Positions 4,687-47,559 of a DNA stretch of 64,000 nucleotides are shown here, piece after piece. The translations under genes were made by a program, and so were the position numbers. The notes beneath the pieces are model-generated. The model ran no database searches. It was not told the DNA's origin and saw only the letters and a list, made by a program, of their open reading frames with translations. The stretch is from a virus (taxonomy: Duplodnaviria; Caudoviricetes): IMG/VR virus record IMGVR_UViG_3300005614_001084, positions 64,001 through 128,000 of that record; one strand, 5' to 3'. The stretch's first letter is position 1, and every line of letters starts with the position of its first letter.

Positions 4687-4723
4687 CGCAGGTGTTAGCG
4701 TACCCGAATCCCCTGACTTCGCC

Positions 4724-4742: not shown

Positions 4743-4746
4743 ATCC

Positions 4747-5100
4747 ATGTCCCAGGACAATCGATGGAAGTGCCCGAAGTGCGACAAGATGAACATGCCG
4801 ACGAACCTCGCGTGCAGCGAGTGTGCGACCGCCAACCCGCAGGTGCAGCAGACCGGCGGGGTCGTGCTGGTGCCGAGGATCGGCAACGTGCAGGCGTACG
4901 TCACGCTCGAAGGCGACGGCATCCAGCGTCAGCCCTACGCAAAGTTCGGCCGGATCAAGGTCGGTGAGGATCCGCGTCCACTCAACCTCTTCAACATGGA
5001 GGAGGTTGCGGCGCTGCACGCTCTCACCGAGCAGGTCTTGCGTGAGGCGTACAGGATGCAAACGATCGTCGTGCCCGCGCTGATGGAGGAAAAGGGATGA
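4747..5100 (+). CDS. RanBP2-type zinc finger protein
   Basis: WKCPKCDKMNMPTNLACSEC = W-x-C-x2-C-x3-N-x6-C-x2-C. Confidence 0.65.
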   Translation: MSQDNRWKCPKCDKMNMPTNLACSECATANPQVQQTGGVVLVPRIGNVQAYVTLEGDGIQRQPYAKFGRIKVGEDPRPLNLFNMEEVAALHALTEQVLREAYRMQTIVVPALMEEKG

Positions 5101-27856: not shown

Positions 27857-28855
27857 TCAGCTCTTCTTCCTCCGCGCCTTGCGCGGCTTCTTCTGGATGC
27901 TCTTCATCGCCTTGGCGAGGCGCTTCTTATCCAGCTCCTCCTGCTTCTTGATCTTGGCGACGAGTTTGGCGTCGATGAGGTCGTCCAACCGCTCCACGAT
28001 CAGATCGCGCAGCACCGTGGGTGGCAGCGCGTCGACCTCCCACGAGCTGTGGCCGTGCTTCTTCACGAACGCGGCGTACCGGGAGTCCGTGGGCTTGGCG
28101 ACGTTCGGCGGCGGCTTGTACTGCTGGATCTGCTCCATGGTGAGGGCGAGCTTCTCCACCTCGACCGAGGTTCTCCGCAGCCTGATAGCGCGGGCATGGG
28201 AGGCTTCCGCTTCCCACTTCTTGGTCTTCTCGTTGAGCTTGAAGATCGTGCCGGAGTTCACGTACTCGTCCAGGCGCACCTGGATGTCGCGCACCATGTC
28301 CTCGCCGCTGGGATCGAAGTCCCCGAGGTAGAGGATGGTGACGTCGTCGCAGCCGATGGCGTTGACTTGAGATCGGACGCGCTCGCCAGCTTCCTTCATC
28401 GCCGAGGTCGACGAATACCCACGATTCACCATGAGAGGCACGTGGTACTCGTTCGCGATCGGTGCCAGCACTCCTGCGAGCGCGTCCTTCTCCACCCACA
28501 GCTCCACGTATCGATCCTGTCCGTGAAGCCGCGGCAGGCGGTAGCTCTCGACGGCCGAATCGATCAGGTTGGTGAGCCCACTGAACTCCGGCGGCATGAA
28601 CGGGATGCGGATGCGGTCTTCCACAGCCAGCCAGTCCAGGATGCCGCCCCGTCGCGCCTTCGAGACGATCTCGCCGAGGCGCTTGTACTCGTTCTTCGTG
28701 TTCTGTATCTCGTCGCGAGAGACAAGCTGGTAGAAGAGCTGGCGGAGCGTCATCGTGAGCCCAGCCGCCTGGTACTCCTTGATGATGTCGATGATCTTGT
28801 GCAGCAGGGCCACGGTCTTATCTTCGGGCCGGTACCGCTCGTAGAACTCAAGCAT
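27857..28855 (-). CDS. Topo VI-A/Spo11-like winged-helix + TOPRIM protein
   Basis: TLRQLFYQL (catalytic-Tyr region), VELWVEKDAL, RGYSS and YLGDFDPSG TOPRIM motifs. Confidence 0.75.
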   Translation of the reverse strand: MLEFYERYRPEDKTVALLHKIIDIIKEYQAAGLTMTLRQLFYQLVSRDEIQNTKNEYKRLGEIVSKARRGGILDWLAVEDRIRIPFMPPEFSGLTNLIDSAVESYRLPRLHGQDRYVELWVEKDALAGVLAPIANEYHVPLMVNRGYSSTSAMKEAGERVRSQVNAIGCDDVTILYLGDFDPSGEDMVRDIQVRLDEYVNSGTIFKLNEKTKKWEAEASHARAIRLRRTSVEVEKLALTMEQIQQYKPPPNVAKPTDSRYAAFVKKHGHSSWEVDALPPTVLRDLIVERLDDLIDAKLVAKIKKQEELDKKRLAKAMKSIQKKPRKARRKKS

Positions 28856-30021
28856 CGAACACCTCCACGACCTGCCAACCATCGCCGCGCTTAGATCGCA
28901 CCTTCAGGACGTCTCGACGCGCCCGAGCTTCCTCGCGAATGCGCGCGGTGCCCACCACCAGATCCAACTCGGCAGTGCGAAACGCGAGAAGCGTCCACCA
29001 GCCGCCGTGCTTGCTGAACTTGATCTCCATCCCGGGAACGAGATGAAGATGCTTGCGCTCCACGCCGAGCTTCACGATGCGGCGCGCGCAGTTGCAGTCG
29101 TGCCCGTTGTCCACCGGCTTGCTGTGGCTGGCACCGAAACACCACCATCGTACGTCACGGTCCATCGCTGTCTCCTAGATCTTGATGTCACCGAGTAGAA
29201 GAGCGGTGGCGAGACCTCTCGCGTGACCGGCTCTGCGCGCGTAGTGCGCCATGCCCTCCACGCTCGCCTTGTAGCCGTTGGGATCTCCGGGAGGTGTGAG
29301 GTCCTTGGCCCAGGAGTCGGCCTGATGTTCATCGACCCGAAGACCGCGAGCGATCATGGCGTAATCACCGGGCCGATCCCAGTGCTCCGCCCACTTCAGG
29401 TTTCTGGACAGCAAGTCGTCAATCAGGATCTTGTCAGTACCGTCGCGATCCATCGAACCTCTCCATCTGCTTCTTCGCCAGGTACACGGCGGCGAGCGCT
29501 CTCCATGGCCCACCGCTCCATCGCCTCGACACGAGGTGCAGTGCTCGGGCGAGGCGGCGTTGCAGCCGCCTGCGCTTCCTACTCCTCAGGCTCACGACGC
29601 GCGCCGGATCGCGGCCCTGGCCTCGTCTTCGCTCTGCGTGATGTTCTCGATCTCGGCATAGGCCTCCGCCTTGGTCATCAGTGGGGAGTCGAGATCGATG
29701 GTGGTGTTGTCCTTGCGGTAGACGGTGAGGCGCACCACGCAGTTGCGGGGCGGCGGCTTCGCCACCTCCACAACCACGGGCGGCTTGGTTCGGCACGCGT
29801 TGCTCATGGCTGCTCCGGGAAGTACTCGTTGTGAAAGATCGTGACCCCAATGGTCCCGCTCTTGGTGTAAGGGCTGGTGATTGTCGCATCCCATGCCGGA
29901 AGACCAGCCGGGTTCTCCTTGGCCACGCAGTCGACGAGCACGTGCGCGGGCACCTGCACAGGCCTCAGAGCCACGACCAGGCGGCCCCAGATCCTCGATC
30001 CGACCCTCAGCTCTGCGCCCA

Positions 30022-35807: not shown

Positions 35808-35835
35808 AAAGAGATGGGGAGAAGCCCCAGTCTCT
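35808..35835 (-). terminator. terminator closing pseudoknot array E
   Basis: AGAGA(C)TGGGG-CTTCT-CCCCATCTCT-TT. Confidence 0.6.
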
Positions 35836-36188
35836 GAGATCGGTACGACGCACATTCCATCCCGCGATCGTCTCCAACCCTACAACTCTCGTTCGTCATC
35901 GCTTCCATGCTCGGCCTAGGCCCGGCGCGTTAGCTTGAGACCCACCTGCTTACCCACGGTGGTCCTGGGTTACTGCGCCAAGCTGATCCCTCCCATGCTG
36001 CGCGCAACAAAGCTCGCGGCGCATCCGCGCGAGACTTACATCTCAACAACACCACCAGCTTTTCCGCGGTGGTCCCGGATCGATGCAGGTCTCGTCCCCT
36101 GCCAGGAGGCCCGACCTTCTCACGTAGACTTCCGTCGTCGGCCCTTTCCGTTCATCACACAGCGCCGGCTTACCCGCGGCGTTCCGGG
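35836..36188 (-). ncRNA. pseudoknot-repeat/spacer array E (3 repeats: 36163-36188, 36051-36079, 35942-35970)
   Basis: Repeats share S1-G(G)-S2-G-S1'-NAAGCN-S2'; unique spacers of ~80-105 nt. Confidence 0.8.
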
Positions 36189-36481
36189 AGCATCTTCGGT
36201 CTCACACGATGCGGGCCGTGCGGACACATCGTGAGGTCGATGGCTGGCCTGACGTCACCGCGCGAATCCATCCGATCGATGATGTTGTTGATGTCGCGCA
36301 CCTCATGCCCGGTATCGTCGAAGTGCGCCGCATCTTCGTGCGACTTGCCGCAGTGCGCGCAGAGGTCGTGAGCGTAGACACCTTCCATCTCAGCACCAGC
36401 CACGAACTCGTGCTGATCCCCGTACACATCACGGGCCAGGTTCCCGCCGCACTCCTCGCAGATGCACCTCACCTCGTTCAC
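36170..36481 (-). CDS. small Cys-rich protein whose TAA stop lies inside a pseudoknot repeat
   Basis: CEEC and CAHC; ends CGC GGG TAA GC. Confidence 0.55.
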   Translation of the reverse strand: MNEVRCICEECGGNLARDVYGDQHEFVAGAEMEGVYAHDLCAHCGKSHEDAAHFDDTGHEVRDINNIIDRMDSRGDVRPAIDLTMCPHGPHRVRPKMLPERRG

Positions 36482-37116
36482 TTCGTGCTCCCCGGCTTCA
36501 CGCGTTCGAGCAAGAAGTCGAGGTCGGCGCAGTGATCGACTCCCCACATCTCTGCGGCCTCGGCGCGAAGCTTCGCGACGAAGGTGTCGGCCTCGGCGCG
36601 CAGGGCGTGCACCTTCTCGTACAGCTTCTCGGGATCACCCCACAGCTCGGCCTTCACCATCGCGGCGTTGACCCTGCGTCCCCGACCTCCCTTGCTTCTC
36701 GGCGGATCGATCTCCGCGCTGAGCCGCATCAGTCGGTACATCCCCTCGTTGATTTCGGTCGCGCCCTCGAACGCATCCCGAATCTCCTCCGCCAGCCACA
36801 TCGCCTGCTCTTCGCTCAGCGCCAGGCGCTCGACGAGCAGCGCAAGACCATCGGCATGCTTCTTCTCCCAGTCCAGCATCGTGGCGCGGCTCTTCTTCTC
36901 CTCCGCGATGCGGCATCTCTCCTCGTGCGCCGCGTAGTAGTAGTTCGCGCGCTCCACCGGATCACTACTCGCCGTGATCTCGATGCGAACGTCGTTGAAC
37001 ACCAAGACCTCGGTGTTGCCGGTGCGCTTCGCCTCTTCCACCACCGCTTTCGTCGCATCGGTGATCCACCCCAGGGTGTGGATGGTGCCGTCTTCCCTCC
37101 GATACAGTCGAAACAT
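36478..37116 (-). CDS. hypothetical protein
   Basis: Preceded by CTATAAGATCTTGGAGG. Confidence 0.65.
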   Translation of the reverse strand: MFRLYRREDGTIHTLGWITDATKAVVEEAKRTGNTEVLVFNDVRIEITASSDPVERANYYYAAHEERCRIAEEKKSRATMLDWEKKHADGLALLVERLALSEEQAMWLAEEIRDAFEGATEINEGMYRLMRLSAEIDPPRSKGGRGRRVNAAMVKAELWGDPEKLYEKVHALRAEADTFVAKLRAEAAEMWGVDHCADLDFLLERVKPGSTK

Positions 37117-37121
37117 CTCTA

Positions 37122-37167
37122 CCTCCAAGATCTTATAGGGCAAAAAGAACACGCCAAAGCGTGTTCT
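37122..37167 (-). terminator. terminator immediately followed by CTATAAG promoter and SD
   Basis: AGAACACGC-TTTG-GCGTGTTCT-TTTTGCCCTATAAGATCTTGGAGG. Confidence 0.75.
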
Positions 37168-37930
37168 AGATGCCAAGCGGATGCCCTCACCCTCCAGCGA
37201 TCACACGAAGCAGACGCGCCTTTCTACCCTCCATCTCTCGTCGATACCACCGGCTTGCCCACGGTGGTCCTGGGTCATCGGCGGTATCACCGATCGCACA
37301 TTCTCCCGACTTCAAGACCCCCTATCCCCACCACTCGCGACGCAGTCGAACGTGCCTTCGCACTTGCGTGTCTTCCTACCGCCAGCCACCAAGATCATCG
37401 TTACTGCGGTACCCACCTGCTTAGCCGCGGTGGTCCCGGAGCGACGCGCGAAAGTCCGAGCGTCCGTACCTTCCGCCTGGTTGCCGACCCCTCGTTCATC
37501 CCTGACCGAACCGCGCCAGCTTACCGGCGGCGCACCCGGATCAACACAGAGCGCGGACCTCCACGCCCACCCATCTTCTCACGCCATCCACTTCCACTCG
37601 CCGCCCGTCCAAGTGTGCGAACGGTCGATCTCGCCGCTTACCCGCGCGTATCCGGGATGATCTGAAAAACTTTCCTTCCCACAGCCAGGTCCCCGTTCCG
37701 TCTTCCGTGACAACCTGTACCCGTACTTTCAGCACAACACCTTCTACGTACTACGTCCTGATCTCAGAACATACTCGATCCCACCGTCTTATCGGAGGTG
37801 GGCCCCGAGATCGCAATGACTGGCGGGCGTGCTCAGACCACTGCCGTCTTCCTTCGCATCCACCGCCTGTTCATTCTCTCGAATCACCAAACAGAAGGTC
37901 CAACGCCTGCTTACCCGCGGTCGTCCGGGT
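37168..37930 (-). ncRNA. pseudoknot-repeat/spacer array D (6 repeats: 37902-37930, 37780-37808, 37632-37656, 37513-37540, 37413-37440, 37246-37274)
   Basis: About 760 nt with no convincing gene; six co-varying repeats; spacers 72-138 nt. Confidence 0.85.
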
Positions 37931-38522
37931 TGATCTCGACGTCGTACATACGTCCGGCGTCGCTCTTCGGCTGCGCGTCGGGCGCCATGCTGAAGCTGAG
38001 GAGGTTGTCGCAGTCCTCGTCCTCACCGTTGTCCCGCTGCACGTCGAGCGTGACGTGACCTTCGAGCGTACGACCCGCAGTGATGACGATGTCGCCGACC
38101 TCGAAGATCAGAAGGTCCTGGTCCGCCCTACGGTCGGTGATGAGTAGCATGAGCTTGGGCGTCTGCACCGCGATGGGGTTGGGCTGTGTTGGCGCCACCA
38201 ACCGATCTGCGAGCCACATCGCACGCTCCTCTCCCGTCCACGCCATGTACTGAGGAGGCTTCAGCCCACACATCCGCAGCGCCGCGGTGACCTCCGCGCG
38301 TCGAGACGCGTGCGGGCTCATCGCCCCCTCCAGCCAGTACTCGCGCAGTCGGTGCTGGATGCTCTTGCGCGCGTTGTCGAGCGTCTCGCTCGCCAGCTTC
38401 ACCTCGTTGACGGCGAAGCTGAGTTCGTTGATGTCGGCGGCCCGTTTCTCGCGAAGCTCTTCCTGAGCCTTCTCGATCGTGCCCTCTACTTCGTCGACGG
38501 TTCGATCTTGCCATTCACCCAT
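37911..38522 (-). CDS. hypothetical protein whose TAA stop lies inside a pseudoknot repeat
   Basis: CTATAAG promoter and GGAGG; ends CGC GGG TAA GC. Confidence 0.6.
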   Translation of the reverse strand: MGEWQDRTVDEVEGTIEKAQEELREKRAADINELSFAVNEVKLASETLDNARKSIQHRLREYWLEGAMSPHASRRAEVTAALRMCGLKPPQYMAWTGEERAMWLADRLVAPTQPNPIAVQTPKLMLLITDRRADQDLLIFEVGDIVITAGRTLEGHVTLDVQRDNGEDEDCDNLLSFSMAPDAQPKSDAGRMYDVEINPDDRG

Positions 38523-38527
38523 GTGTT

Positions 38528-38569
38528 CCTCCAAGATCTTATAGGCAAAAAGGAAGGCTGTCCTTCCTT
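38528..38569 (-). terminator. terminator plus CTATAAG promoter and SD
   Basis: AAGGAAGG-ACAG-CCTTCCTT-TTTGCCTATAAGATCTTGGAGG. Confidence 0.75.
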
Positions 38570-38964
38570 CGTCCGTACTGGACTTCGTACAACCGACGAA
38601 ATACTCGAATCCTTCATTCGTCCAGCTATTTCATCAGCCAACACTTCCTTAGATCACCACCTGCTTGCCAGCGGTGGTCCCCGGATAGATCGAGCCTGTT
38701 CCTCAGATCATCAGCTACAGCAGTACCGCCAAGCGCTGCTTCGTCTCTCCATTCATTCCTGTGATCGTTCCTGCAATCCCTAGGAACCAGCCGTCCTCCC
38801 CAACTTCACCCCTCCGCTAGAGCGCCACCTGCTTACCTGCGGTGGCCCCAGGAGCTTCAGATCGGGACACCCGACATAGCTACTTGATTCCTGTCCGACT
38901 AACTAACGGGGCATCAGTCGTTGCAACTGTCCGCCGTCCTCAGCTTGCCGGCGAGGTATCCGGG
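38570..38964 (-). ncRNA. pseudoknot-repeat/spacer array C (3 repeats: 38938-38964, 38824-38853, 38656-38685)
   Basis: Co-varying stems such as CCTG/CAGG and CCTC/GAGG. Confidence 0.8.
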
Positions 38965-39446
38965 TACGATCGCGTCTCCACGCCTTCGCGCGGATGCACG
39001 CCGACGATATCGAGCAGCATGGAATCGGGGAACCTCTGCTGCACGAACTTGACGGTGTCGCGGCGCGCCAGCTCGACGTCTGCCGGCAGCATGTAGTCGG
39101 ACACCTCTTCACCGCTGTGCCACGTACAGGCGCCCTCGAAGAAGTAGCTCAGTGCTGCCATCGGCGATTTCTCGATCAGCTTGATCGCCGCAACTTCCAG
39201 CTCTGCAAGAGAGGAGAGCGGGAAGTCAGGACAGGTGTCGTCCGTTCGAACGAGCTGACGTGCCGCAGTCCGAACCTCTTCGTACTGCACCAAGGTGCTG
39301 AGCACCGAACCCACTGCACACCGTGCGCAGAAGGGCAACTGCGACGGGAACTGCGCCGTGCCGAACCACGCCCCGGGCCGCAACTGCTCGATGGGTTCGT
39401 TCTCCAGCGCGTCGATGATCTGAGCCTTTGTCACCACGATGAGCAT
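38940..39446 (-). CDS. hypothetical protein ending within a pseudoknot repeat
   Basis: AGGAGG RBS; CARCAVG. Confidence 0.55.
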   Translation of the reverse strand: MLIVVTKAQIIDALENEPIEQLRPGAWFGTAQFPSQLPFCARCAVGSVLSTLVQYEEVRTAARQLVRTDDTCPDFPLSSLAELEVAAIKLIEKSPMAALSYFFEGACTWHSGEEVSDYMLPADVELARRDTVKFVQQRFPDSMLLDIVGVHPREGVETRSYPDTSPAS

Positions 39447-39454
39447 GTCGCCTC

Positions 39455-40033
39455 CTAACATCCGTCGTCGAGATCAGAGTCACCCACGCGTCGCTCCGCC
39501 AGATGACGAAGCTCCGCCGCCTCCTCCGCGCTGAGCGGTTCGAGCTGCGCCTTCACGCGCAACGTCTCGTAGCGCGCACCCTCATCTGCGGGGAGGGCCA
39601 CCCAGGTCAATACGCCTTTCTTGATGTCATAGATCTGATCGAAGCCGAAGCGTCGCATCATGACATCAACGGGATTGCCCGCGATCTCGTAGTCGCCCGC
39701 CGTAGCCTTGAGCACGTTGTCGATGGCGGGATGGATCTCCGACACACCACCGACGCCGTACCTGATGCTGTACAGCATGCCGCGCGTACGACTGAGCGCC
39801 TCGAAGAGCTTCGCCGACAGCTCGACCGCGGCCTTGAGACGATTGCCGATCGTGGTGGTGACGACCACGGGCTTGCCATGCTTCGCCTCGTACTGCTCCA
39901 CAATGCCCTCGATCGTACCGTCGATATGATCTCTGGCGAAGTCGGGCAGCTTGTCGTAGTCGCGCCCAAAGGGCCCGCCCAGCGGGCCACCGAGCAACGC
40001 CATGCGCAGCAGTTCCACCTCACGCTTCGTCAT
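39455..40033 (-). CDS. hypothetical protein
   Basis: Coupled ORF starting MTKREVELL. Confidence 0.55.
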   Translation of the reverse strand: MTKREVELLRMALLGGPLGGPFGRDYDKLPDFARDHIDGTIEGIVEQYEAKHGKPVVVTTTIGNRLKAAVELSAKLFEALSRTRGMLYSIRYGVGGVSEIHPAIDNVLKATAGDYEIAGNPVDVMMRRFGFDQIYDIKKGVLTWVALPADEGARYETLRVKAQLEPLSAEEAAELRHLAERRVGDSDLDDGC

Positions 40034-40347
40034 AGTCCCCTTCCTCGCTCCTGGATCTCGGCCGACTGACGGCTCATGATCTTCTCCGCCTCTTTGATGC
40101 GCCGGGCGGTACTCGCGTTGAGGCTCAGCGTTCTGTACAACACGGCGAACGTGACTGAGTTGCACGCCAAGCCGATCGGAATACCAACACGCGGCGCCCC
40201 GGTACTCCACCACAAGGCGAAGGCTGTCAGGGAAAGCAAGCCGGAGATCGCACACAGCGCAGCGCACACGATCATGCCGGCGGTGATTCCGCGCTCAGCC
40301 TTCTCTTCAACTTCGAGTGGTTTCTCGCTCTCTCTGTACGGCATCAC
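40030..40347 (-). CDS. small 2-TM membrane protein
   Basis: Two hydrophobic segments. Confidence 0.55.
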   Translation of the reverse strand: MMPYRESEKPLEVEEKAERGITAGMIVCAALCAISGLLSLTAFALWWSTGAPRVGIPIGLACNSVTFAVLYRTLSLNASTARRIKEAEKIMSRQSAEIQERGRGL

Positions 40348-40850
40348 GCCTCCTCGATCTTGCCGCGCACTGGGCGCGGCGTGAGCATCACGTGCGGCTT
40401 CGGGTTGTGAATGAAGGTTCGATTGAAGTCCTCGTTCTCCACTTCAGCGATCGCCGCGGCTTCGGCTGCGATGGTGTGGAGCCAGCGCTCTGCGAACAGC
40501 ACCTGCTCCTTCGTCAGGACCAGTAGGCAGGGCCAGCATACGACGTTGTAGAGACCACTAGGCCTCGACTCGATGTCGCGCAGCGTGTCGATGAAGCCCT
40601 CGACCTGCGTCGCGAAGATGTAGAGCGTGGAGTCGAAGAACGGGGTCGAGAAGCGGTGCGCACCGATGCGCATCACGCCTCCGCCATCCAGCGCCACACT
40701 GCTGATCTCCTGCTTTGCCCATGGCTCCAGGTCGGGGTCTTCGCGCCATCGAGGCTCCTTGATGGCCAGGGCCTCGTCGCTGATCCACATCGGAGAGACG
40801 CAGCGCCGGCCTTCGCGAGCGTTCTCCGGCTTCACCAGCCACCACTTCAT
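40344..40850 (-). CDS. hypothetical protein
   Basis: Coupled ORF starting MKWWLVK. Confidence 0.55.
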   Translation of the reverse strand: MKWWLVKPENAREGRRCVSPMWISDEALAIKEPRWREDPDLEPWAKQEISSVALDGGGVMRIGAHRFSTPFFDSTLYIFATQVEGFIDTLRDIESRPSGLYNVVCWPCLLVLTKEQVLFAERWLHTIAAEAAAIAEVENEDFNRTFIHNPKPHVMLTPRPVRGKIEEA

Positions 40851-41473
40851 CACGGCCTCGCCAGTCCGAGGACGTCGACCATCACCTTGATGTAGTCCTT
40901 CATCTTCTGATCTCCCCATGCGTGGATGAGCCCCTTGGCCGGACCGAACTCCTTCGTCACGTCCTCGTTCTCGAACGCCTTGCTCAGGCGCTCCGGGATG
41001 ACGGCGAGACCGGACTCCGCCATCACCTCGATGCTCCACACGTTCTTGCGGTGGCCCACCACAAACATGATGCCGAGGCCCGCCTTCTCTTTCGGCGCGA
41101 TCGAGTACCACGGAATCATAGAGTACAGCCGATCGTTCCTCCAGTACTGGTTCGGGATCTCCTTCAGCCCGTAGTGCGGCATGCGCGCAGCAGAGAACGC
41201 TCCCTGCACGGAGTAGAACTCGTCCCACGCCCGATTCCTCATCAGGCAGGTCTCGTGCACCCACTTCTCCTGCGTCTGCACGTAGCGCTGATCGCTGAAG
41301 GCAGGACCATTCAGCTCCCAGCCGCGACCGCACAACGCGCAGGTCTTGCCTCGCACGTCACTGATGTGGTGGGTGGAGATGTAGTAGCCCTCCTGCTTCT
41401 CGTGCAGAAGCTGGCCGCGCTCGTCGAAGCCGACGCTCTTGTCTTCGGTGATGGGATTTACGATCTGAGTCAT
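40850..41473 (-). CDS. hypothetical protein
   Basis: Preceded by CTATAAGATCTAGAGGAG. Confidence 0.65.
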   Translation of the reverse strand: MTQIVNPITEDKSVGFDERGQLLHEKQEGYYISTHHISDVRGKTCALCGRGWELNGPAFSDQRYVQTQEKWVHETCLMRNRAWDEFYSVQGAFSAARMPHYGLKEIPNQYWRNDRLYSMIPWYSIAPKEKAGLGIMFVVGHRKNVWSIEVMAESGLAVIPERLSKAFENEDVTKEFGPAKGLIHAWGDQKMKDYIKVMVDVLGLARP

Positions 41474-41480
41474 GGCATCT

Positions 41481-41525
41481 CTCCTCTAGATCTTATAGGC
41501 AAAAGGAGAGGCGCGATGCCTCTCC
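41481..41525 (-). terminator. terminator plus CTATAAG promoter and SD
   Basis: GGAGAGGC-ATCGC-GCCTCTCC-TTTTGCCTATAAG. Confidence 0.75.
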
Positions 41526-41606
41526 CCGGACCGACTTCTCATCCGTCCCACATACCCTCAAACGTTACATCTGGATTCCGGCCTGCTTATCGGCGGCCTT
41601 CCCCGA
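41526..41606 (-). ncRNA. single pseudoknot repeat plus spacer (array B; repeat 41580-41606)
   Basis: TCGG/CCGA and GGCC/GGCC stems with TAAGCA loop. Confidence 0.7.
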
Positions 41607-42677
41607 ACCTTCAGGATGGAAGATCTGAGCCTGGCGAGCCTTTTCGTAGGCACCGGCTTCCACCAGCAGACCAGACCTGGATGCCACCTTGGTCTCGCCC
41701 AGGGGCGTACGTATCTCCATCGCGATCTCATGCGCCGATACGTCAGTACGCGCAAGCGGTTTCTCCTTCGCTCTTTGATCCGTGGCGAAGGCTCTCACCT
41801 CAGCGAGCGGATGCGTGGTGATGAACAGCCAGTGAAGAGCGATCATCGCCGAGGCGCTTCCCTCACCTTGGGTCTTGATCCAGTTCACAAAGATGGCGTC
41901 CCACACCTCATCGATCCGAAGATGTGTTGCGAACGCTTTTCGACGCTGTGCCGGATTCATCTGAGACAGCTCGGTGCTACTGAAGCCAGTAGCGAGCAGC
42001 GCACTCATTGCCGCACTCGATCCTGCCGGAGTGGAGACGAGCCGGGCCCACTCCTCGTGAAGAGGATCTCGGCCCTCCTCCGGCTTGGGCGGCGGTATCT
42101 TGGGATCAGGGAAGTCCGGGAACTTGTCGAACGCCGCGAGCTTGAGCCCGAGCTTGTTCATCAGCTCGATGTCGCCGGTCTCGGAGAGAAGCGTCAGGTC
42201 TTCGGCGGTAAGCGACACGAAGAGCTTGCTCAGCCACAACGCGCGAGGCGAGATCTCCCCGAACATCTCAGCGATGCAGTAGTTCACGAATCGGGTGTCC
42301 ACGCCTCCAACCAAGGTGCCGCCACGAAGATGACGTGACGTCGCCTCCGCCCACACCCTGACGCCGAGATCGTAGAGCATCTTTCGCGTCCGTGACTCGA
42401 ACTGTGCCTCCATCCGCCTGAAGCCCTCCTCCCGCATACGGGCAGACAGCGCCTCGACCCCGAGATGCAAGATCTTATCCCGTGGGATGTTGTTGCGATC
42501 GAGAACTTCTCGGACGCGGTCCGTAACTCGCTCCAGCTCCAGAACCTTACGGCGCTCGCCGTAAAGCTCCGTCTTCAACTTCTCGATCTCCCGCTCGTAG
42601 TCGGCGACCGTCTTCTTGATCCCGAACTCCTTGTTCGTCGTACGTTCCTTGATCTTCTGCACTCGCTTCTTATTCAT
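41565..42677 (-). CDS. hypothetical protein (370 aa, N-terminal coiled coil)
   Basis: AAGGAG RBS; the 3' end reads through a repeat. Confidence 0.6.
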   Translation of the reverse strand: MNKKRVQKIKERTTNKEFGIKKTVADYEREIEKLKTELYGERRKVLELERVTDRVREVLDRNNIPRDKILHLGVEALSARMREEGFRRMEAQFESRTRKMLYDLGVRVWAEATSRHLRGGTLVGGVDTRFVNYCIAEMFGEISPRALWLSKLFVSLTAEDLTLLSETGDIELMNKLGLKLAAFDKFPDFPDPKIPPPKPEEGRDPLHEEWARLVSTPAGSSAAMSALLATGFSSTELSQMNPAQRRKAFATHLRIDEVWDAIFVNWIKTQGEGSASAMIALHWLFITTHPLAEVRAFATDQRAKEKPLARTDVSAHEIAMEIRTPLGETKVASRSGLLVEAGAYEKARQAQIFHPEGSGKAADKQAGIQM

Positions 42678-43201
42678 GATCGTCTCCTTCTTCGATACGG
42701 TGGTCTGCCGCGGTTCTTCTTCACCACCGCGTACAGGCGGGCCTGGATGCGACGAAGCTCTGCGATGGTCTCGGGAGTGAGATGGCGGCGGAACACGGCC
42801 TGGCGCAGACGACGCGCCACCTTGTCCCTTCTCTCGCGTGCCCAGCCATGATCGTCGAACATGTTGAGCGTGGACTCCACGCCGAGCCCGTTCTGCCGAG
42901 CCAGCCCGATGCTGAGCAGAGACGCGATCTCCTCCTCTGCATCAACAAGTCTTTCTGAGATCTCGGCGCGATGCTGGCCAAGCCTGTGCGGATCACCGAG
43001 ACCGAAGTACGGCAGCTCCTTGCGCGATGGTGGTGCGACCAGCAGATGCGCCAGCTCGTGCGCCAAGTGCTCAGCGGTATCTGCGGTATGGGCGTCCTCT
43101 TCCTCGTCGTAGTACGGCCACTCACCTTCGATCCACCGCAGCCCGTGCTTGCTCGCCAGCTTGATGATGTTGCGCCCTGCGACCGTGTTCAACGCGACCA
43201 T
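42674..43201 (-). CDS. HExxH protein, EpmC/YfcM-like
   Basis: AHELAHLLVAPPSRKELPYFGLG resembles the EpmC motif; CTATAAG promoter and GGAGG. Confidence 0.5.
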   Translation of the reverse strand: MVALNTVAGRNIIKLASKHGLRWIEGEWPYYDEEEDAHTADTAEHLAHELAHLLVAPPSRKELPYFGLGDPHRLGQHRAEISERLVDAEEEIASLLSIGLARQNGLGVESTLNMFDDHGWARERRDKVARRLRQAVFRRHLTPETIAELRRIQARLYAVVKKNRGRPPYRRRRRS

Positions 43202-43206
43202 GCCTT

Positions 43207-43253
43207 CCTCCGCATGCTTATAGACAAAAAGATCAACCCGAAAGTTGATCTTT
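43207..43253 (-). terminator. terminator plus CTATAAG promoter and SD
   Basis: AAAGATCAAC-TTTCGG-GTTGATCTTT-TTGTCTATAAG...GGAGG. Confidence 0.7.
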
Positions 43254-43627
43254 AGTACCCAGCTCTCCGCAGAGCTATGATCCGTTCCTACCACCTATCG
43301 TAGCTACCGAAGTTCTATACCCCAATCGTTCAGTCATATGGCTGTTCAGTCATATGGCCGGCCGCCCTGTGATACTGGAGGTGGTGCCGCCTGCTTACCC
43401 GCGGCGGCCCCGGAAGTTTCGATCTGAAAGAGCGAGCCCGACGTCTCTTGTTCGCCAACGCTAGCCCCCAGAGAATGGACGACACCGGCTTACCCACGGT
43501 ATCCCTGGGATCGATCTTGTTGGACGTAGTACGTTCCCGCGTCCTGTGCCACCAGCGATACTTCGACCGCCTTCAGGCGTCCCATCCATCCTTGAAGCGC
43601 CACCTGCTTCACCGCGGTGGCCCCGGC
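43254..43627 (-). ncRNA. pseudoknot-repeat/spacer array A directly downstream of the RAMP gene (repeats 43599-43627, 43481-43510, 43386-43414)
   Basis: The first repeat starts 41 nt after the RAMP stop; G-U pairs in the stems work only on the minus strand. Confidence 0.85.
43328..43358. repeat. 16-bp-period tandem duplication GTTCAGTCATATGGC
   Basis: GTTCAGTCATATGGC-T-GTTCAGTCATATGGC. Confidence 0.85.
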
Positions 43628-43668
43628 GCAGCCTGAGTTCTCTCGGCTACTCGCGAAAGATCGCGTTC

Positions 43669-44775
43669 CTACTCCGCGGAGACCTCGGCAGCTTCCGCCG
43701 CTTCGAGGTCGTCCATGCCCTTCGAGTTGACGACACCCGCGATCTTGACGCCGCTGAGGCGCGCCACGGTCTTGTCGAGGTAGCCGGCGTACTGCTGTCG
43801 AAGCTCCGCCGGCACACCGGCGAGCAGGTGATCGAGGGGGCCCTCCTTCACCTTGCCGAGCTGCTCGAAGCTGATGGGCAGCAGCGTACCGTAGCGGGTG
43901 CCTCGGGCGGGACTGAGGCCGCGACGCGGCTGCAAGCACGCCACCCACAGCATGCGTTCGAGCTGGTCGGGGGCGAGGAAGCCCTTGACCGGCGCGCTGA
44001 ACCGGATCTCGAACTCCACGCCCGGCAGCAGCGCCTCGTACTTCTTCGGCGCCGCGGGACCGTTCGCGCTCTGCACCGGCAGCACGACCTCTTCCATCGG
44101 GGCGTCGGCCGGGATGCGGATGGGCTGGAACGCGACGTAGTCGGCACGGGCCGCCGGCAGCCCGGCCGGATGCATCACGTTGGTGCGGAACCAGCCGCGC
44201 TGCACGTCCGGCGTGATGATGATCTCCTTGGTGTTGAGATCACGCTCGAAGATACCGTTGCCGGTGATGTCCTCGTCCTTCTCGTGGACGCCGCGGGCCT
44301 TGAGCATCATCTCGCTCGGGATCTGCGAGCCGAGCAGCGGCGTCAGCGTGCGCACGCGCAGCAGGTAGCTGCGGTACTCGTCGATGATGTTGCCGCGGCC
44401 CGCCTTCTCGTCACCCTGCTTCTCCTTCTTGTCGAAGCCGGACTTCAGATCCTCCAGCTCGACAGTGCGAAGCAGCTCGGGCAGCAGATCGCCGACGTGC
44501 GCGTACTCCGGCGGGGACTTCCACCCCAGCTTCTTCATCTCCCAGACCTTCACCATCTTGGAGTTGGCGCCGACCGGGCGCTGGTTCTCCGCGATGATGT
44601 CGCGCTTCTTCAGGCCCTTCAGCGCCTGCGTGAGCAGGTTGTTGTTCGGTCCGAAGTTGCAGTCGAGCGCGGTCGCCGCCGTCTCGACGATGTTGGCGAT
44701 CGTGGCGCTCCCCATCTTCTGCACGATGTAGGTAGCGATGAGCTGGGCTTCGGTCAGGTTCTCGATGATCTTCAT
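43669..44775 (-). CDS. stand-alone Cas7-like RAMP protein with N-terminal winged-helix domain
   Basis: RAMP motifs in canonical order: LRVRTLTPLLGS, IIITPDVQRGWFR, YEALLPGVEFEIRF, G-rich loop GLSPARGTRYG. The first ~80 aa are wHTH-like. Confidence 0.75.
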   Translation of the reverse strand: MKIIENLTEAQLIATYIVQKMGSATIANIVETAATALDCNFGPNNNLLTQALKGLKKRDIIAENQRPVGANSKMVKVWEMKKLGWKSPPEYAHVGDLLPELLRTVELEDLKSGFDKKEKQGDEKAGRGNIIDEYRSYLLRVRTLTPLLGSQIPSEMMLKARGVHEKDEDITGNGIFERDLNTKEIIITPDVQRGWFRTNVMHPAGLPAARADYVAFQPIRIPADAPMEEVVLPVQSANGPAAPKKYEALLPGVEFEIRFSAPVKGFLAPDQLERMLWVACLQPRRGLSPARGTRYGTLLPISFEQLGKVKEGPLDHLLAGVPAELRQQYAGYLDKTVARLSGVKIAGVVNSKGMDDLEAAEAAEVSAE

Positions 44776-44839
44776 GTTCGTTTTCTCCCGTTGATGGGCA
44801 TGGCCCTTCAACTACTGATAGCTGATCTTAGAACGAGGT

Positions 44840-45352
44840 TCAGTGGTACAGGACGTTGGTATCCTTTCCGAGAAGAGGAACGATCAACTCCTCGGCATGG
44901 TCGTAGATGGACATCAGGTACGGCTGCATCTCTTCGAGAGAGGAATCCGTCACGATCTCTCGCATCGCTGCGATGACGCCTTCCGTCGTGGGCTTCTCGC
45001 TCCAGACCTCCAGACGATCGCAGCAGAGCGCGATGCTCCACGCGAGCACCGCCGCGATGTTCATGGTGGAGAGCGTGACGTCGCCGTTGAAGACGACATG
45101 GATGTGCCGCTGCGAACACATCCCGATGTTGATGGGCTGCGGGAGGGCCGGCTGCACGTCGAAGTGGACCTGCGTCGGGCGCTGGAATCTCCACGCCGTG
45201 GCGATCCCAAGCATGTCCGTCAGCATGCTGGGCAGCATCAGGTCGTACTCCACGCGCTCGGCGAGAACCGCGATCCTCTCCTGAATGCTGGGCTCCTTCG
45301 GCTTCGCAGACTTCGTCCGGGCCGCAGGACGCTTCTTCGTCTTGGGCTTCAC
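44840..45352 (-). CDS. hypothetical protein upstream of the RAMP gene
   Basis: GGAG RBS, CTATCAG box at 45376-45382. Confidence 0.6.
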   Translation of the reverse strand: MKPKTKKRPAARTKSAKPKEPSIQERIAVLAERVEYDLMLPSMLTDMLGIATAWRFQRPTQVHFDVQPALPQPINIGMCSQRHIHVVFNGDVTLSTMNIAAVLAWSIALCCDRLEVWSEKPTTEGVIAAMREIVTDSSLEEMQPYLMSIYDHAEELIVPLLGKDTNVLYH

Positions 45353-45759
45353 GGCTTGATCTCCGTCTTCTTGATCTGATAGCCACGGTAGGGCTTACCG
45401 TTGCTTCCGACCATACTAACGGTCTCGATCGAGTTCGCGAGCTGAAGCGACTTCAGACAGCGCGCCACGGTCTCGAAGCTGTGCGGCACACCGTCCTCGA
45501 TCTCCGAGATGCTCATCGGTCGCTTCGCGATCTTGATGAAGGCGAAGACGTTGTTCTTCGCCGTGGCGATGTCCCTCCGACTACGCTTGCGCTTCGGCGC
45601 GGCCTTGGCGATGAGCCTGCCCACCACTGCGGGGTCGAGTGTGGTCGCGGTCTTGCCGTTGAGCAGATCCTCCAAGACCTGGTTGTACTTCGCGGCCTCC
45701 GCCTCGTGGAACGCAGCCTTGGCCGCAGCATCCTTCACTCTGTCGATCAGCTTGGTCAT
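45349..45759 (-). CDS. coiled-coil plus C-terminal winged-helix DNA-binding protein
   Basis: VFAFIKIAKRPMSISEIEDGVPHSFETVARCLKSL. Confidence 0.6.
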   Translation of the reverse strand: MTKLIDRVKDAAAKAAFHEAEAAKYNQVLEDLLNGKTATTLDPAVVGRLIAKAAPKRKRSRRDIATAKNNVFAFIKIAKRPMSISEIEDGVPHSFETVARCLKSLQLANSIETVSMVGSNGKPYRGYQIKKTEIKP

Positions 45760-45782
45760 ATGTTCTCCTGGACGCATCCTCG

Positions 45783-45826
45783 TCCAAGATCTTATAGGGC
45801 AAAGAGAAAGGGGCCTTTCGGCCCCT
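45783..45826 (-). terminator. terminator plus CTATAAG promoter
   Basis: GGGGCC-GAAA-GGCCCC-TTTCTCTTTGCCCTATAAGATCTTGG. Confidence 0.75.
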
Positions 45827-45829
45827 CGC

Positions 45830-46420
45830 TCATGCGTACTCGGAATCGACATCCGGGTTCCAATAGGTGGCCACCGGGCACACTCCACTTCCGATCCAGC
45901 GCGGTCTTCCGAAGGTTGGCTCGTTGCGCCCATTCAGCAGGCCCAAGCGCCGCGCGCGCTTGATGCCTCGCCTCCAGAACCGCAGGAACATGTACCGCTC
46001 GCCCCACTCCCTGAGAGCACTACCCGGATACCCGACCTCCGTGACCAGCTGGTAGTCGATCACGCACTTCAGGAAGTAGTCAGCCCAGGATTCTCCGCGC
46101 ACTAGCCATTTCGCCAGCTCCAGCTCGAAGGGCATGAGCAGGTAGGCTTCACAGATCACTCGGCTGGGCTCGCCAAGAATGCAGTGCACGATCTCGTGCA
46201 GCAGTATCTCCGGCATCGGATCGTAGGCGTAGACCAGCCTGGCTTTGGTGCTGAAGCCGACGTCACCCTGTGGGCCCCAAGTGAAGTCTTCGGGTAACTG
46301 CGGCTGGTTCTGTTCGACGTCCGGGTCTGAGTGGTGCTCGATGCAGAGCTTGATGCCGTAGCTCTTGGCCAACTCCCCCAACTTCTGAAGGATCTTGCCG
46401 TAGTACTCGTCGTTCACCAC
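45830..46420 (-). CDS. HExxH (zincin-like) protein
   Basis: ILLHEIVHCILG...E. Confidence 0.55.
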   Translation of the reverse strand: MVNDEYYGKILQKLGELAKSYGIKLCIEHHSDPDVEQNQPQLPEDFTWGPQGDVGFSTKARLVYAYDPMPEILLHEIVHCILGEPSRVICEAYLLMPFELELAKWLVRGESWADYFLKCVIDYQLVTEVGYPGSALREWGERYMFLRFWRRGIKRARRLGLLNGRNEPTFGRPRWIGSGVCPVATYWNPDVDSEYA

Positions 46421-47559
46421 TTCTCGGTCTCGTGAATGAGTTTGATCTTGCCGAACCGAGGGACCCCGGCCGGCGTGCGCTGTGCGAAGTACTTCACCGT
46501 TGCCTTCTTGCCGATCAGCTTGTCGGCGTTCTCGAGGATGGCGACGCGTTCCGCCTTCGTCCCCACGACGTCGGCCTTGAACTTCCGCGTGGGATCGATG
46601 TCGAGCTGGAGCCAGGCCACCTTGGCACCACCGCTGGCGTTGCCTTCACCCTCCAAGATCTCCAACACCACGAACTCGGAGTCCTTGAACTCCTTGCGCT
46701 TGAGCAGCTTGTTAGTCCGCTTCTCCTCGTACTCGCCGTCGATCCTGACCATCTGGCCCTCGTAGCCCATGGCGAGCCACTCCTCGTACCAGGTGTCGAG
46801 CGCCTTCTCGGCGAAGATCGGCATGGTGGGGACGATGACGAGCGGCTTGCCCACCTCGTTCACCACGTCATAGATCCGCGAGAACCTAGCGTGGAAGAGG
46901 TCGACGCCGTTCATCGGCGAATCGTACATGTGGTACTGCACGATCTCTGCGGTCTTGGCCAGATGCTCGGGCGAGGGCTTCAGCGTCTTCACGAGAGAAG
47001 TGATCTCGTTGAAGTTGTCCTTCAGCTCGTGGTTGTACAGCTCGCCGTCGAAGCGCAAACCAGGGATGGCTGCGAAGTACGGCGCCAGCGCCTTCTCGAT
47101 GTGTGGGCAGCTCACGATGCGGTCACCCTTGCGCGACCACAGTCCCTTGGCGTCGGCGATGCAGCGGATGCCATCGAGCTTCGGCTGCGCGTACACCGGG
47201 GGCAGATGCGGGAACTGGGGCGAGAAGTTGATCTTCGCCTTGTAGTCGGCGTAGTCCTTGGCCAGCATGGGCTGGAACCGGGTGGAGGACTGCGCAGCAT
47301 CGACGGTCGTGGAGTAGCCGTCCTTCTTCTTGCGATCGTAGCCGGACTCCACCTCCAGCAGAGCTTGCTGACCCGGGGTCGTTTCGTTGGCTCGGCCGAC
47401 GTTCTTCGCCTTCGCGTTCGTCCACTCCGAAACTACGATCGCCCCATCCTTCTGCCCGCTGTGGGTGCGGTAGCGCCCGTTGGTGGTCTCCAGCTCCAGC
47501 CACCACACCTGAATCGCGCCGGTGCTGGTCCTCTTGTAGAGCTTCTCGCAGTGCATCAC
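46414..47559 (-). CDS. lig: ATP-dependent DNA ligase
   Basis: PMLA, QPKLDGIRC (motif I), FDGELY, YEGQMVR, LLKRK and PRF motifs. Confidence 0.92.
   Translation of the reverse strand: MMHCEKLYKRTSTGAIQVWWLELETTNGRYRTHSGQKDGAIVVSEWTNAKAKNVGRANETTPGQQALLEVESGYDRKKKDGYSTTVDAAQSSTRFQPMLAKDYADYKAKINFSPQFPHLPPVYAQPKLDGIRCIADAKGLWSRKGDRIVSCPHIEKALAPYFAAIPGLRFDGELYNHELKDNFNEITSLVKTLKPSPEHLAKTAEIVQYHMYDSPMNGVDLFHARFSRIYDVVNEVGKPLVIVPTMPIFAEKALDTWYEEWLAMGYEGQMVRIDGEYEEKRTNKLLKRKEFKDSEFVVLEILEGEGNASGGAKVAWLQLDIDPTRKFKADVVGTKAERVAILENADKLIGKKATVKYFAQRTPAGVPRFGKIKLIHETEKW

What the first reader, a model, noticed from the sequence alone, without database searches (positions are those of the whole stretch)
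35808..45826. Candidate new RNA-guided system: lone wHTH-Cas7-like RAMP plus five dispersed arrays of pseudoknot-capped long spacers
Seen in the sequence: a RAMP-motif gene (43669-44775, minus) followed 41 nt later by the first of 16 related ~25-30 nt repeats. They are grouped 3+1+3+6+3 in five mini-arrays over 8 kb, all on the same strand. Each repeat precedes a unique ~50-140 nt spacer, and each array ends in an intrinsic terminator. I recognise no cas1/2/3/5/6/8/10 in the window, and I noticed the repeat nowhere outside 35.9-43.6 kb. Established: Cas7-family RAMPs oligomerise along guide RNAs in class 1 CRISPR effectors. Inference: each repeat+spacer is a guide RNA with a 5' pseudoknot handle, coated by this single protein and directing nuclease-free DNA or RNA binding, for example to repress host or competing-phage genes. 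From memory, phage-encoded stand-alone Cas7-like VIPR systems use GGY-NN repeat RNAs; I do not see that pattern here, so this looks like a different architecture.
Basis: partly seen in the sequence, partly recalled or inferred. Interest (0 to 1): 0.96.

Follow-up and report, generated by a model that had tools for sequence, protein, structure and literature searches.

The report
Phage VIPR-like system, four-base guide code
A complete 172-kb phage genome carries a lone CRISPR-type RNA-binding protein fused to a DNA-binding domain, plus 16 pseudoknot-punctuated RNAs with G at every fourth base. It looks like a four-letter version of the five-letter VIPR guide-RNA systems first described in 2026.

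Summary
Sixteen copies of a ~30-nt H-type pseudoknot lie on the minus strand in groups of 3+1+3+6+3 (35.9-43.6 kb). Both stems covary. Each group ends in an intrinsic terminator. The motif occurs nowhere else in the 172,310-bp virus genome. The gene at 43669-44775 folds as an N-terminal winged helix plus a Cas7/Csm3-like RAMP.

The "unique spacers" are tracts of 4-nt units with G first (76%) and three variable positions. Homologues of the protein at 30-45% identity in metagenomic phage contigs carry the same G-NNN tracts, always on the gene strand and next to the gene. One clear homologue (hhalign 99.6%) is flanked by 5-nt (H-G-T-N-N) tracts of the published non-canonical VIPR kind. Another carries (S-A-N-N) tracts.

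I read this as a VIPR-like, nuclease-free RNA-guided system with a tetranucleotide unit. All VIPR arrays in the held literature are pentanucleotide. No target was found, and the pairing rule is unknown. Whether the pseudoknot caps the 5' or the 3' end is unresolved; relatives favour 3'. Notes from this scan already flagged four-base-period RAMP arrays on other DNA.

Verdict: a new variant of a known kind.

The parts
43669..44775 (-). Gene for the 368-aa wHTH-RAMP protein, a Vipr-like effector candidate
   Evidence: ORF with ATG at 44775. Thirteen full-length homologues start at the same Met. AF2 model has pLDDT 75.8.
44455..44775 (-). N-terminal winged-helix (PadR/Pex-like) domain, residues 1-107
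43843..44388 (-). RAMP (Cas7/Csm3/Cmr4-like) domain, residues 130-311
43888..43923 (-). Glycine-rich loop R-G-L-S-P-A-R-G-x-R-Y-G, residues 285-296
   Evidence: Most conserved block of the family; P283, G286, S288-G292, R294 and G296 are invariant in 13 sequences. It lies between helix 269-281 and strand 298-308 of the model, the position of the RAMP G-loop.
43228..43668 (-). Array A: three pseudoknots (43596-43630, 43478-43512, 43383-43417), three tracts, terminator 43228-43253
   Evidence: Tract 43255-43384 has period-4 G with z +10.8.
41501..41609 (-). Array B: one pseudoknot (41575-41609), one tract (41524-41577), terminator 41501-41525
   Evidence: Period-4 z +3.3.
38553..38967 (-). Array C: three pseudoknots (38933-38967, 38821-38855, 38653-38687), three tracts, terminator 38553-38570
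   Evidence: Tract 38855-38939 has z +11.9; the stretch 38525-38654 downstream of the last pseudoknot, which also takes in the terminator, has z +4.5. The HMM parse runs 38939-38715 and 38655-38559.
37142..37933 (-). Array D: six pseudoknots (37899-37933, 37777-37811, 37626-37660, 37509-37543, 37409-37443, 37243-37277), six tracts, terminator 37142-37166
   Evidence: Period-4 z +4.8, +5.7, +3.7 and +4.9 for four of the tracts. HMM tracts at 37774-37659 and 37501-37284.
35815..36192 (-). Array E: three pseudoknots (36158-36192, 36048-36082, 35938-35972), three weakly periodic tracts, terminator 35815-35829
   Evidence: Period-4 z is only -0.5 to +1.4 here, so these may be degenerate.
45787..45811 (-). 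Promoter-like motif T-T-G-C-C-(C)-T-A-T-A-A-G-A-T-C-T after a terminator (45808-45827), heading the operon that ends in the RAMP gene and array A. Further copies at 43217-43231 (variant), 41488-41512, 38534-38558 and 37128-37152.
   Evidence: Direct-repeat families D5 and D6; sequence. Each copy is followed by G-G-A-G-G and ATG. Its function as a promoter is inferred, not shown.

Best explanation
This is a phage-encoded, VIPR-like RNA-guided system with a four-base guide unit.

Layout. Five consecutive minus-strand operons each end in a non-coding array. The arrays are transcribed with the upstream genes and cut or terminated into 16 or more small RNAs. Each RNA has a variable tract of roughly 15-35 units of G-N-N-N, bounded by a compact H-type pseudoknot or, for the last tract, by the terminator hairpin.

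Proposed mechanism. Protomers of the wHTH-RAMP protein polymerise along a tract, one per 4-nt unit. They hold the invariant G, as the Vipr G-loop and thumb hold GGY. They present the variable bases for gapped pairing with a target, probably double-stranded DNA of a rival mobile element or the host. The effect would be binding and silencing rather than cleavage, because no nuclease domain was detected. The fused winged helix may take the place of the separate DNA-binding Vap protein or helical bundle of VIPR.

Shown here: the fold, the pseudoknot, the 4-nt periodicity, and the co-occurrence of protein family and periodic tracts.

Inferred by analogy with VIPR: transcription and processing, one protomer per unit, DNA as the target, silencing, and the pairing rule.
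For: 1. Fold. wHTH plus Cas7/Csm3-like RAMP, with a conserved G-loop and a long beta-hairpin (residues 227-249) in the thumb position.
2. Period 4 in the window. Period-4 G in the tracts reaches z +11.9. There is no period 3, so the tracts are non-coding, and no period 5. Windows with strong period-4 power are 26 times more frequent at 35.8-43.65 kb than elsewhere, and only for G on the minus strand.
3. Whole genome. A unit HMM finds 0 tracts on the plus strand and 6 on the minus strand of the 172-kb genome. Five of the six lie in the arrays.
4. Independent loci. The same HMM finds 13 tracts in 6 of 18 metagenomic loci that encode homologues. All 13 are on the gene strand, and in each of the six loci tracts lie next to the gene; none is on the other strand. 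Model-free Fourier analysis shows further loci with a period-4 window near the gene. L003 has four tracts of 45-88 units.
5. Unit make-up is reproducible across loci: position 1 is G in 0.60-0.86 of units and positions 2-3 are close to uniform.
6. Link to VIPR. The L022 homologue (hhalign probability 99.6%, E 5e-24) is flanked by 5-nt H-G-T-N-N tracts. These resemble the WGT/NN class reported for divergent VIPR arrays (bioRxiv 10.64898/2026.10.21.760802). Published VIPR has a lone phage RAMP, one protomer per short repeat, and a pseudoknot cap (bioRxiv 10.64898/2026.04.26.720920 and .720927).
7. Viral setting. The family has 166 clusters at 50% identity in 1.84 billion proteins. It occurs in large viral contigs. 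Pattern scans of 185,579 prokaryote species genomes found none.
8. The pseudoknot is supported by covariation in both stems.
Against: - No RNA data. Neither transcription, processing nor protein binding is shown.
- No target was found in the phage's own genome or in any fetched locus under six pairing rules. The guide idea therefore rests on analogy.
- No sequence similarity to a bona fide Vipr. Against SUSP1 Vipr, hhalign gives probability below 1% and phmmer gives E above 0.25. Only the shared RAMP fold links the two.
- G at position 1 is only about 76%, and tracts contain phase slips. Array E and two tracts of array A are barely periodic.
- The register between pseudoknot and tract is not fixed on either side.
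- No conserved accessory gene.
Confidence: 0.6

Rival explanations
1. One reading: a CRISPR-like system in which each pseudoknot is a 5' handle, followed by a long contiguous spacer that pairs base for base with its target, with the RAMP coating it at Cas7-like spacing.
For: The counts fit. There are 16 pseudoknots and 16 downstream tracts, and every array opens with a pseudoknot and closes with a terminator. The RAMP fold is closest to Csm3/Cmr4/Cas7-11.
Against: The 'spacers' carry a period-4 G pattern and no period 6, which contiguous spacers taken from targets would not show. Homologous loci share the period, not the repeat. No Cas1 is present in the genome and no CRISPR-type repeat array was seen around the locus. 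In L003 and L004 the tract comes first and the structured element last.
Confidence: 0.1
2. The protein and RNAs form a ribonucleoprotein that does not use the RNA as a programmable guide. Examples are a decoy or sponge that poisons host class 1 CRISPR complexes or RNA-binding regulators, or a scaffold in which the G-phased tracts only nucleate protein polymerisation.
For: The co-occurrence of protein and periodic tracts shows binding partnership, not guiding. No targets were found. A Cas7 look-alike with repeat-like RNAs could interfere with host Cas7 assemblies (inference).
Against: Sixteen different tracts with near-uniform composition at the variable positions are what a library of specificities looks like. 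A scaffold or decoy would be expected to keep one sequence. Published VIPR RNAs of the same design are programmable guides (bioRxiv 10.64898/2026.04.26.720920).
Confidence: 0.15
3. The pseudoknots and tracts are cis-acting 3'-UTR elements of the five operons (mRNA stabilisers, processing or termination signals, or a selfish short repeat) and have no functional tie to the RAMP gene.
For: The arrays lie at operon ends, before terminators. In four arrays the first pseudoknot abuts or overlaps the stop codon of the last ORF, and in two of them the T-A-A of the loop is the stop codon. Four of the five arrays are 2-8 kb from the RAMP gene.
Against: Period-4 tracts recur beside RAMP homologues at 30-45% identity in unrelated contigs, on the gene strand only, although the structured element itself differs between loci. 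The pseudoknot is absent from the other 164 kb of this genome.
Confidence: 0.08

Closest known systems
VIPR systems (Vipr RAMP plus vrRNA). The type II example is Escherichia phage SUSP1. Sources: bioRxiv 10.64898/2026.04.26.720920, .720927 and 10.64898/2026.10.15.759431.
   Same: Phage-encoded. A single small-locus RAMP without other cas genes. Several ~100-nt non-coding RNAs made of tandem short units with fixed and free positions. A conserved pseudoknot bounds each RNA. Arrays lie beside the gene. I re-read the SUSP1 locus in KT454805.2: vipr at 28474-29061, vap1 at 28031-28471, with GGYNN runs on both sides.
   Different: The unit is 4 nt (G-N-N-N), not 5 nt (G-G-Y-N-N or the listed 5-nt variants). 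The protein is 368 aa with a fused winged helix, against 195 aa. No sequence similarity to SUSP1 Vipr was detected. There is no conserved vap gene. The 16 RNAs are spread over five operons across 8 kb, and tracts reach 34 units here and 88 in a relative, against 9-16. Whether the pseudoknot is 5' or 3' is unresolved. The pairing rule is unknown.
Non-canonical VIPR-like 5-mer arrays (GAC/NN, CAC/NN, WGT/NN, TGH/NN) found by entropy periodicity. Source: bioRxiv 10.64898/2026.10.21.760802.
   Same: Divergent fixed letters beside Vipr-like folds. Locus L022, whose protein is a clear homologue of the window's, carries H-G-T-N-N tracts of this kind.
   Different: That survey reports periods of 5, 18 and 60-79 nt, plus a few of 7, 8 and 10. 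A text search of the paper for period 4 found nothing.
Class 1 CRISPR-Cas backbone proteins (Cas7, Csm3, Cmr4, Cas7-11)
   Same: The best structural matches of residues 130-311. A G-loop and a thumb-like hairpin. Polymerisation along a guide is the family's established mode.
   Different: No CRISPR repeat-spacer array. No Cas1 or second RAMP copy was found; Cas5, Cas6 and large or small subunit genes were not individually searched for. The RNA period is 4 nt, not 6. The system sits in a virus.

Membership tests
VIPR (Vipr + vrRNA) | Stand-alone RAMP with an RRM core, G-loop and thumb, outside any CRISPR-Cas locus | tested here: met
   Fold matches. Conserved G-loop. No Cas1 and a single RAMP copy in the genome.
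VIPR (Vipr + vrRNA) | Protein belongs to the Vipr sequence family (PSI-BLAST family seeded on X1U2U4; SUSP1 Vipr is a member) | tested here: inconclusive
   Family profiles against SUSP1 Vipr give hhalign probability below 1%; phmmer gives E above 0.25. Only one Vipr sequence was available. The seed and the published list of 2,664 proteins could not be consulted.
VIPR (Vipr + vrRNA) | Guide RNA built of tandem short units with conserved and hypervariable positions | tested here: met
   G-N-N-N units with G at 0.76 and the other positions variable. Reproduced in related loci.
VIPR (Vipr + vrRNA) | Pentanucleotide unit (GGY/NN or a related 5-nt consensus, stated for all seven types) | tested here: not met
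   Period 5 is absent (z at most +1.4 in every tract) while period 4 reaches z +11.9. Whole-region contrast. The homologue in L022 does have 5-nt units.
VIPR (Vipr + vrRNA) | Conserved structured tail with a pseudoknot capping the 3' end of each vrRNA | tested here: inconclusive
   The pseudoknot is supported by covariation. Its side is ambiguous. Counts favour 5' (16 pseudoknots, 16 downstream tracts). L003 and L004 and the in-phase GATC unit upstream of the pseudoknot favour 3'.
VIPR (Vipr + vrRNA) | Encoded mainly by viruses or proviruses | tested here: met
   The genome is a virus record with completeness estimated at 100%. Phage-type ligase, topoisomerase, helicase and tail-fibre genes are present. 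Homologues lie on viral contigs of 68-137 kb.
VIPR (Vipr + vrRNA) | Accessory vap gene next to vipr | tested here: inconclusive
   Two small genes precede the RAMP gene in the same operon; one has a weak HTH-like match (DUF3263, E 5e-4). Neither is conserved in related loci. The fused winged helix might replace a Vap, which is inference.
VIPR (Vipr + vrRNA) | RNA-guided binding of double-stranded DNA by the 1-nt skip rule, giving transcriptional silencing | not testable with these tools
   No targets were found locally under six rules. This needs RNA and binding experiments or large gapped searches.
Class 1 CRISPR-Cas | CRISPR repeat-spacer array with contiguous spacers, and adaptation or partner Cas proteins | tested here: not met
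   No Cas1. The repeats are a 30-nt pseudoknot separated by period-4 tracts of variable length, 63-136 nt. There is only one RAMP copy.

The most novel reading that the evidence does not exclude
A second noncontiguous RNA-guide code exists. A winged-helix-fused RAMP filament reads guides in four-base units, with one locked G (or S-A in a relative) and two or three free bases. Its geometry and target-spacing rule would differ from VIPR's five-to-three rule. The phage deploys 16 or more such guides from the 3' ends of five operons. The same protein family would span 4-nt and 5-nt codes, so the unit length of an RNA-guided filament would be evolvable.
Probability: 0.45. Interest if true: 0.88.

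Novelty: new variant of a known kind. Interest (0 to 1): 0.78.

Why it matters
VIPR systems, described in 2026 preprints, showed that a RAMP filament can read a guide in five-base units and recognise DNA through a gapped code. A natural family that uses four-base units would show that the unit length and the number of locked bases can vary. It would also show that the DNA-binding accessory can be fused to the RAMP. A different footprint may bring a different target-spacing rule, which matters for models of how Cas7-type backbones evolved (6 nt in CRISPR, 5 nt in VIPR, 4 nt here). It would also offer another compact programmable DNA binder. Because one protein family here includes both 4-nt and 5-nt arrays, comparing L022 with this window should show which protein features set the period.

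Tried and rejected
Searches and tests that led nowhere:
- Rfam found nothing, either at gathering thresholds over the whole window or at E up to 5 over the arrays (only chance-level mir-928 and rsmX). So no known ribozyme or riboswitch explains the pseudoknot.
- No tRNA or tmRNA.
- Pfam and PHROGs give nothing for the protein. A profile search of solved-structure sequences gives nothing significant.
- tblastn of the protein against 50,697 isolate phage records finds no match.
- Self-targets were sought in the 172-kb genome and all fetched loci under six rules. The free positions were taken as 2-4, 2-3 or 3-4, and the target period as 2, 3, 4 or 5. Apart from self matches, nothing exceeds shuffled-unit controls.
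- Codon hypothesis (each unit reads one in-frame codon): stop triplets are not depleted among the free triplets, and open-frame lengths match shuffles. Rejected.
- Fixed register between pseudoknot and tract: not seen on either side.
- Conserved neighbouring (vap-like) genes: none found by tblastn.
- A G-only segment score was too unspecific in this G-rich strand; shuffles gave as many segments. I replaced it with Fourier analysis and a unit HMM.
- A broad 60-sequence alignment was too diverse for locus scans.

Not run:
- Gapped-pattern scans of public collections for targets. They need typed patterns and a known rule.

- As a result I have no RNA evidence, no oligomer model, and no access to the contigs of the closest homologues (87% and 79% identity).

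Full report
**1. The observation**

On the minus strand between 35.9 and 43.6 kb there are 16 copies of a ~30-nt element. The sixteenth copy, at 38933-38967, overlaps the end of the ORF at 38940-39461.

Read 5' to 3', the element has four parts. Arm a is C-C-N-G-(G). Arm b is C-C-A-C-C. Arm a' is C-N-G-G and is followed by T-A-A-G-C. Arm b' is G-G-T-G-G. The order a-b-a'-b' is that of an H-type pseudoknot.

Both stems covary among the 16 copies. Examples are C-C-T-G with C-A-G-G, C-C-C-A with T-G-G-G, and G-C-G-C-C with G-G-C-G-C. Arms of the same copy pair better than arms from different copies, and 0 of 20,000 permutations reach the observed sum for either stem.

Other checks:
- A structure-aware scan of the whole genome finds the element only in this region. 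The genome is 172,310 bp, a virus record with estimated completeness 100%.
- Rfam has no match.
- Each group ends in a terminator-like hairpin with a T-run.

**2. The protein**

The gene at 43669-44775 encodes 368 aa. Pfam and PHROGs are silent. An AlphaFold2 model built on 13 homologues has pLDDT 75.8. It shows two domains.

In the viral structure library the RAMP part matches stand-alone viral RAMPs of 194-252 aa. The most conserved block, R-G-L-S-P-A-R-G-x-R-Y-G, sits where RAMPs have their glycine-rich loop.

The genome has one copy of the gene and no Cas1. The surrounding genes are phage-type: DNA ligase, topoisomerase, Dda-like helicase and tail-fibre-like. No isolate phage is close.

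**3.

The sequences between the pseudoknots are unique, but they are phased. G recurs every fourth base.
- Against shuffles, period-4 power for G reaches z +11.9 (38855-38939) and +10.8 (43255-43384). It is between +3.3 and +5.7 for six further stretches downstream of pseudoknots.
- Periods 3 and 5 are absent from every tract. Period 6 stands out in a single tract (37660-37777, z +4.3).
- Strong period-4 windows are 26 times more frequent in this region than in the rest of the window, and only for G on the minus strand.
- In register, position 1 is G in 76% of 130 units. Position 2 is poor in C, and positions 2-3 are A/T-enriched and variable. Position 4 matches the background G+C content here.
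- A five-state unit HMM finds no tract on the plus strand of the whole genome and six on the minus strand. Five of the six lie in the arrays.
- The tracts contain phase slips. Array E and two tracts of array A are only weakly periodic.

**4. Independent support from relatives**

A profile search of 1.84 billion representative proteins finds 166 clusters. Nearly all are 340-440 aa and match across both domains. Eighteen metagenomic loci and three viral contigs that encode homologues were fetched. Pattern scans of 185,579 prokaryote species genomes found none.

The HMM trained on this window finds 13 tracts in six of the loci (L002, L003, L004, L007, L013, L019). All 13 are on the gene strand, and in each of the six loci tracts lie next to the gene. 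None is on the opposite strand in about 190 kb. Model-free Fourier analysis shows further loci with a period-4 G window near the gene.

L003 has four tracts of 45-88 units. Each is followed by a conserved ~95-nt two-hairpin element. L004 has four tracts, each followed by A-T-A-G-A-A-C and a long hairpin, the last of which doubles as a terminator. So the structured punctuation differs between loci, while the 4-nt phasing is shared.

Two relatives widen the picture.
- L012 (34% identity) has S-A-N-N units.
- L022 lies in a 34% G+C viral contig. Its 291-aa protein aligns to the family profile with hhalign probability 99.6% (E 5e-24, 269 columns covering both domains). It is flanked by two tracts with a 5-nt period, H-G-T-N-N (z 4-8).

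**5. Comparison with what is known**

The VIPR preprints describe mostly phage-encoded loci with a lone RAMP (Vipr). They also describe ~100-nt vrRNAs made of 9-16 Y-N-N-G-G units, followed by an invariant 3' tail that forms a pseudoknot. One protomer binds each unit. GGY is locked by the G-loop and thumb, and NN pairs with DNA while skipping every third target base.
- All seven types are described as pentanucleotide; this is stated in the legend of fig. S17.
- A later survey lists non-canonical 5-mers, including WGT/NN. It reports periods of 5, 18 and 60-79 nt, with a few of 7, 8 and 10. A text search for period 4 found nothing.
- The third VIPR preprint does not mention four-base units.

I re-read the SUSP1 locus in KT454805.2. 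Its 195-aa Vipr shows no significant sequence similarity to this family.

The system therefore meets these VIPR criteria: a lone viral RAMP, phased guide-like RNAs, and a pseudoknot. It fails the pentanucleotide criterion, and its sequence membership is undecided. L022 shows that the same protein family also serves 5-nt arrays of a published non-canonical kind. That is why I file the window under "new variant of a known kind".

Notes from this scan, which are AI notes and not publications, had already flagged four-base-period RAMP arrays on other DNA. One was an archaeal (C-A-N-N) case and one a phage G-NNN case. I reached the G-NNN reading, before seeing them.

**6. How it probably works**

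Five operons run leftward on the minus strand. Each starts after a terminator with the motif T-T-G-C-C-(C)-T-A-T-A-A-G-A-T-C-T, then G-G-A-G-G and ATG, and each ends in an array and a terminator. The motif resembles a -10-only promoter, which is inference. The RAMP gene is the last gene of the first operon.

I propose the following steps.
1. The arrays are co-transcribed with the upstream genes.
2. The transcripts are cut into units.
3. Each tract is coated by RAMP protomers, one per four bases.
4. The G is held by the protein, and the free bases are presented for gapped pairing to DNA.
5. The outcome is silencing, since no nuclease domain was detected.

Only the parts list and the protein-tract association are shown here. 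The rest is analogy with VIPR.

**7. Open points**

*Which end the pseudoknot caps.* The counts favour a 5' position. There are 16 pseudoknots and 16 downstream tracts, and the first pseudoknot of arrays B-E abuts or overlaps the last ORF's stop codon. In two cases the T-A-A of the loop is the stop codon.

Three lines favour a 3' cap:
- L003, L004 and published VIPR all place the structure after the tract.
- GATC or GAAC lies within 30 nt upstream of 14 of the 16 pseudoknots.
- That unit is in phase with the upstream G register in 9 of those 14, and in 4 of 4 strongly periodic cases.

No fixed register links the pseudoknot and the tract on either side.

*The pairing rule and the targets.* No match above shuffled controls was found in the phage genome or in the fetched loci under six rules. 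An in-frame codon reading is rejected.

*Missing evidence.* RNA evidence, an oligomer model, and the contigs of the closest homologues were out of reach.

**8. Verdict**

The best explanation is a VIPR-like RNA-guided system with a four-base guide unit and a winged-helix-fused RAMP (confidence 0.6). Interest is 0.78.

Noticed in passing
L022:4874-5235 (IMG/VR contig IMGVR_UViG_3300020171_000017): A 291-aa homologue of the window's protein (gene at 3998-4873) is followed by two tracts of H-G-T-N-N pentamers, separated by a possible 38-codon ORF. The same protein family therefore serves both 5-nt and 4-nt arrays.
   Followed up: partly
L012:3440-3640: Upstream of another homologue (34% identity) the tract is built of S-A-N-N units (C-A-G-A, G-A-A-G, C-A-A-C and so on). 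It has a 4-nt period but different fixed letters, similar in kind to an archaeal (C-A-N-N) array noted earlier in this scan.
   Followed up: partly
L003:11104-12640: Four tracts of 45-88 G-N-N-N units (180-355 nt) are each followed by a conserved ~95-nt two-hairpin element preceded by A-G-A-G-A-A. These guide-like tracts are far longer than any described for VIPR (9-16 units).
   Followed up: partly
window 37128-37152, 38534-38558, 41488-41512, 43217-43231, 45787-45811 (minus strand): The conserved motif T-T-G-C-C-(C)-T-A-T-A-A-G-A-T-C-T lies directly after each terminator and about 10 nt before G-G-A-G-G and ATG. It may be a phage-specific -10-only promoter, reminiscent of T4 late promoters.
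   Followed up: no
whole genome G000:C1: GATC occurs 11.5 times per kb. My own estimate from base composition is roughly three times lower.
   Followed up: no
window 37911-37913 and 36170-36172 (minus strand): The T-A-A in the loop of two pseudoknots is the stop codon of the upstream ORFs (37911-38534 and 36170-36547). The last ~48 nt of ORF 37911-38534 already show G in tract phase in 8 of 12 units.
   Followed up: partly
window 39209-39284 (minus strand), inside ORF 38940-39461: A period-4 G signal (power about 9) lies inside an apparently coding ORF about 270 nt upstream of array C. It is unclear whether this is chance or a tract overlapping a gene.
   Followed up: no
G000:C1:142997-143048 (minus strand; outside the window): This is the only HMM tract outside the arrays. 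It is a 52-nt purine-rich run of 13 units, mostly G-N-N-N, and could be an orphan guide or just a purine-rich leader.
   Followed up: no
window 46414-47559 and L020:29511-30611: Both in this phage and in phage SUSP1 the RAMP/Vipr operon lies just downstream of an ATP-dependent DNA ligase gene on the same strand. This may be coincidence.
   Followed up: no
window 43321-43350 (minus strand): A 14-nt direct duplication (C-C-A-T-A-T-G-A-C-T-G-A-A-C, twice, 2 nt apart) lies inside the last tract of array A. It keeps the 4-nt phase.
   Followed up: no
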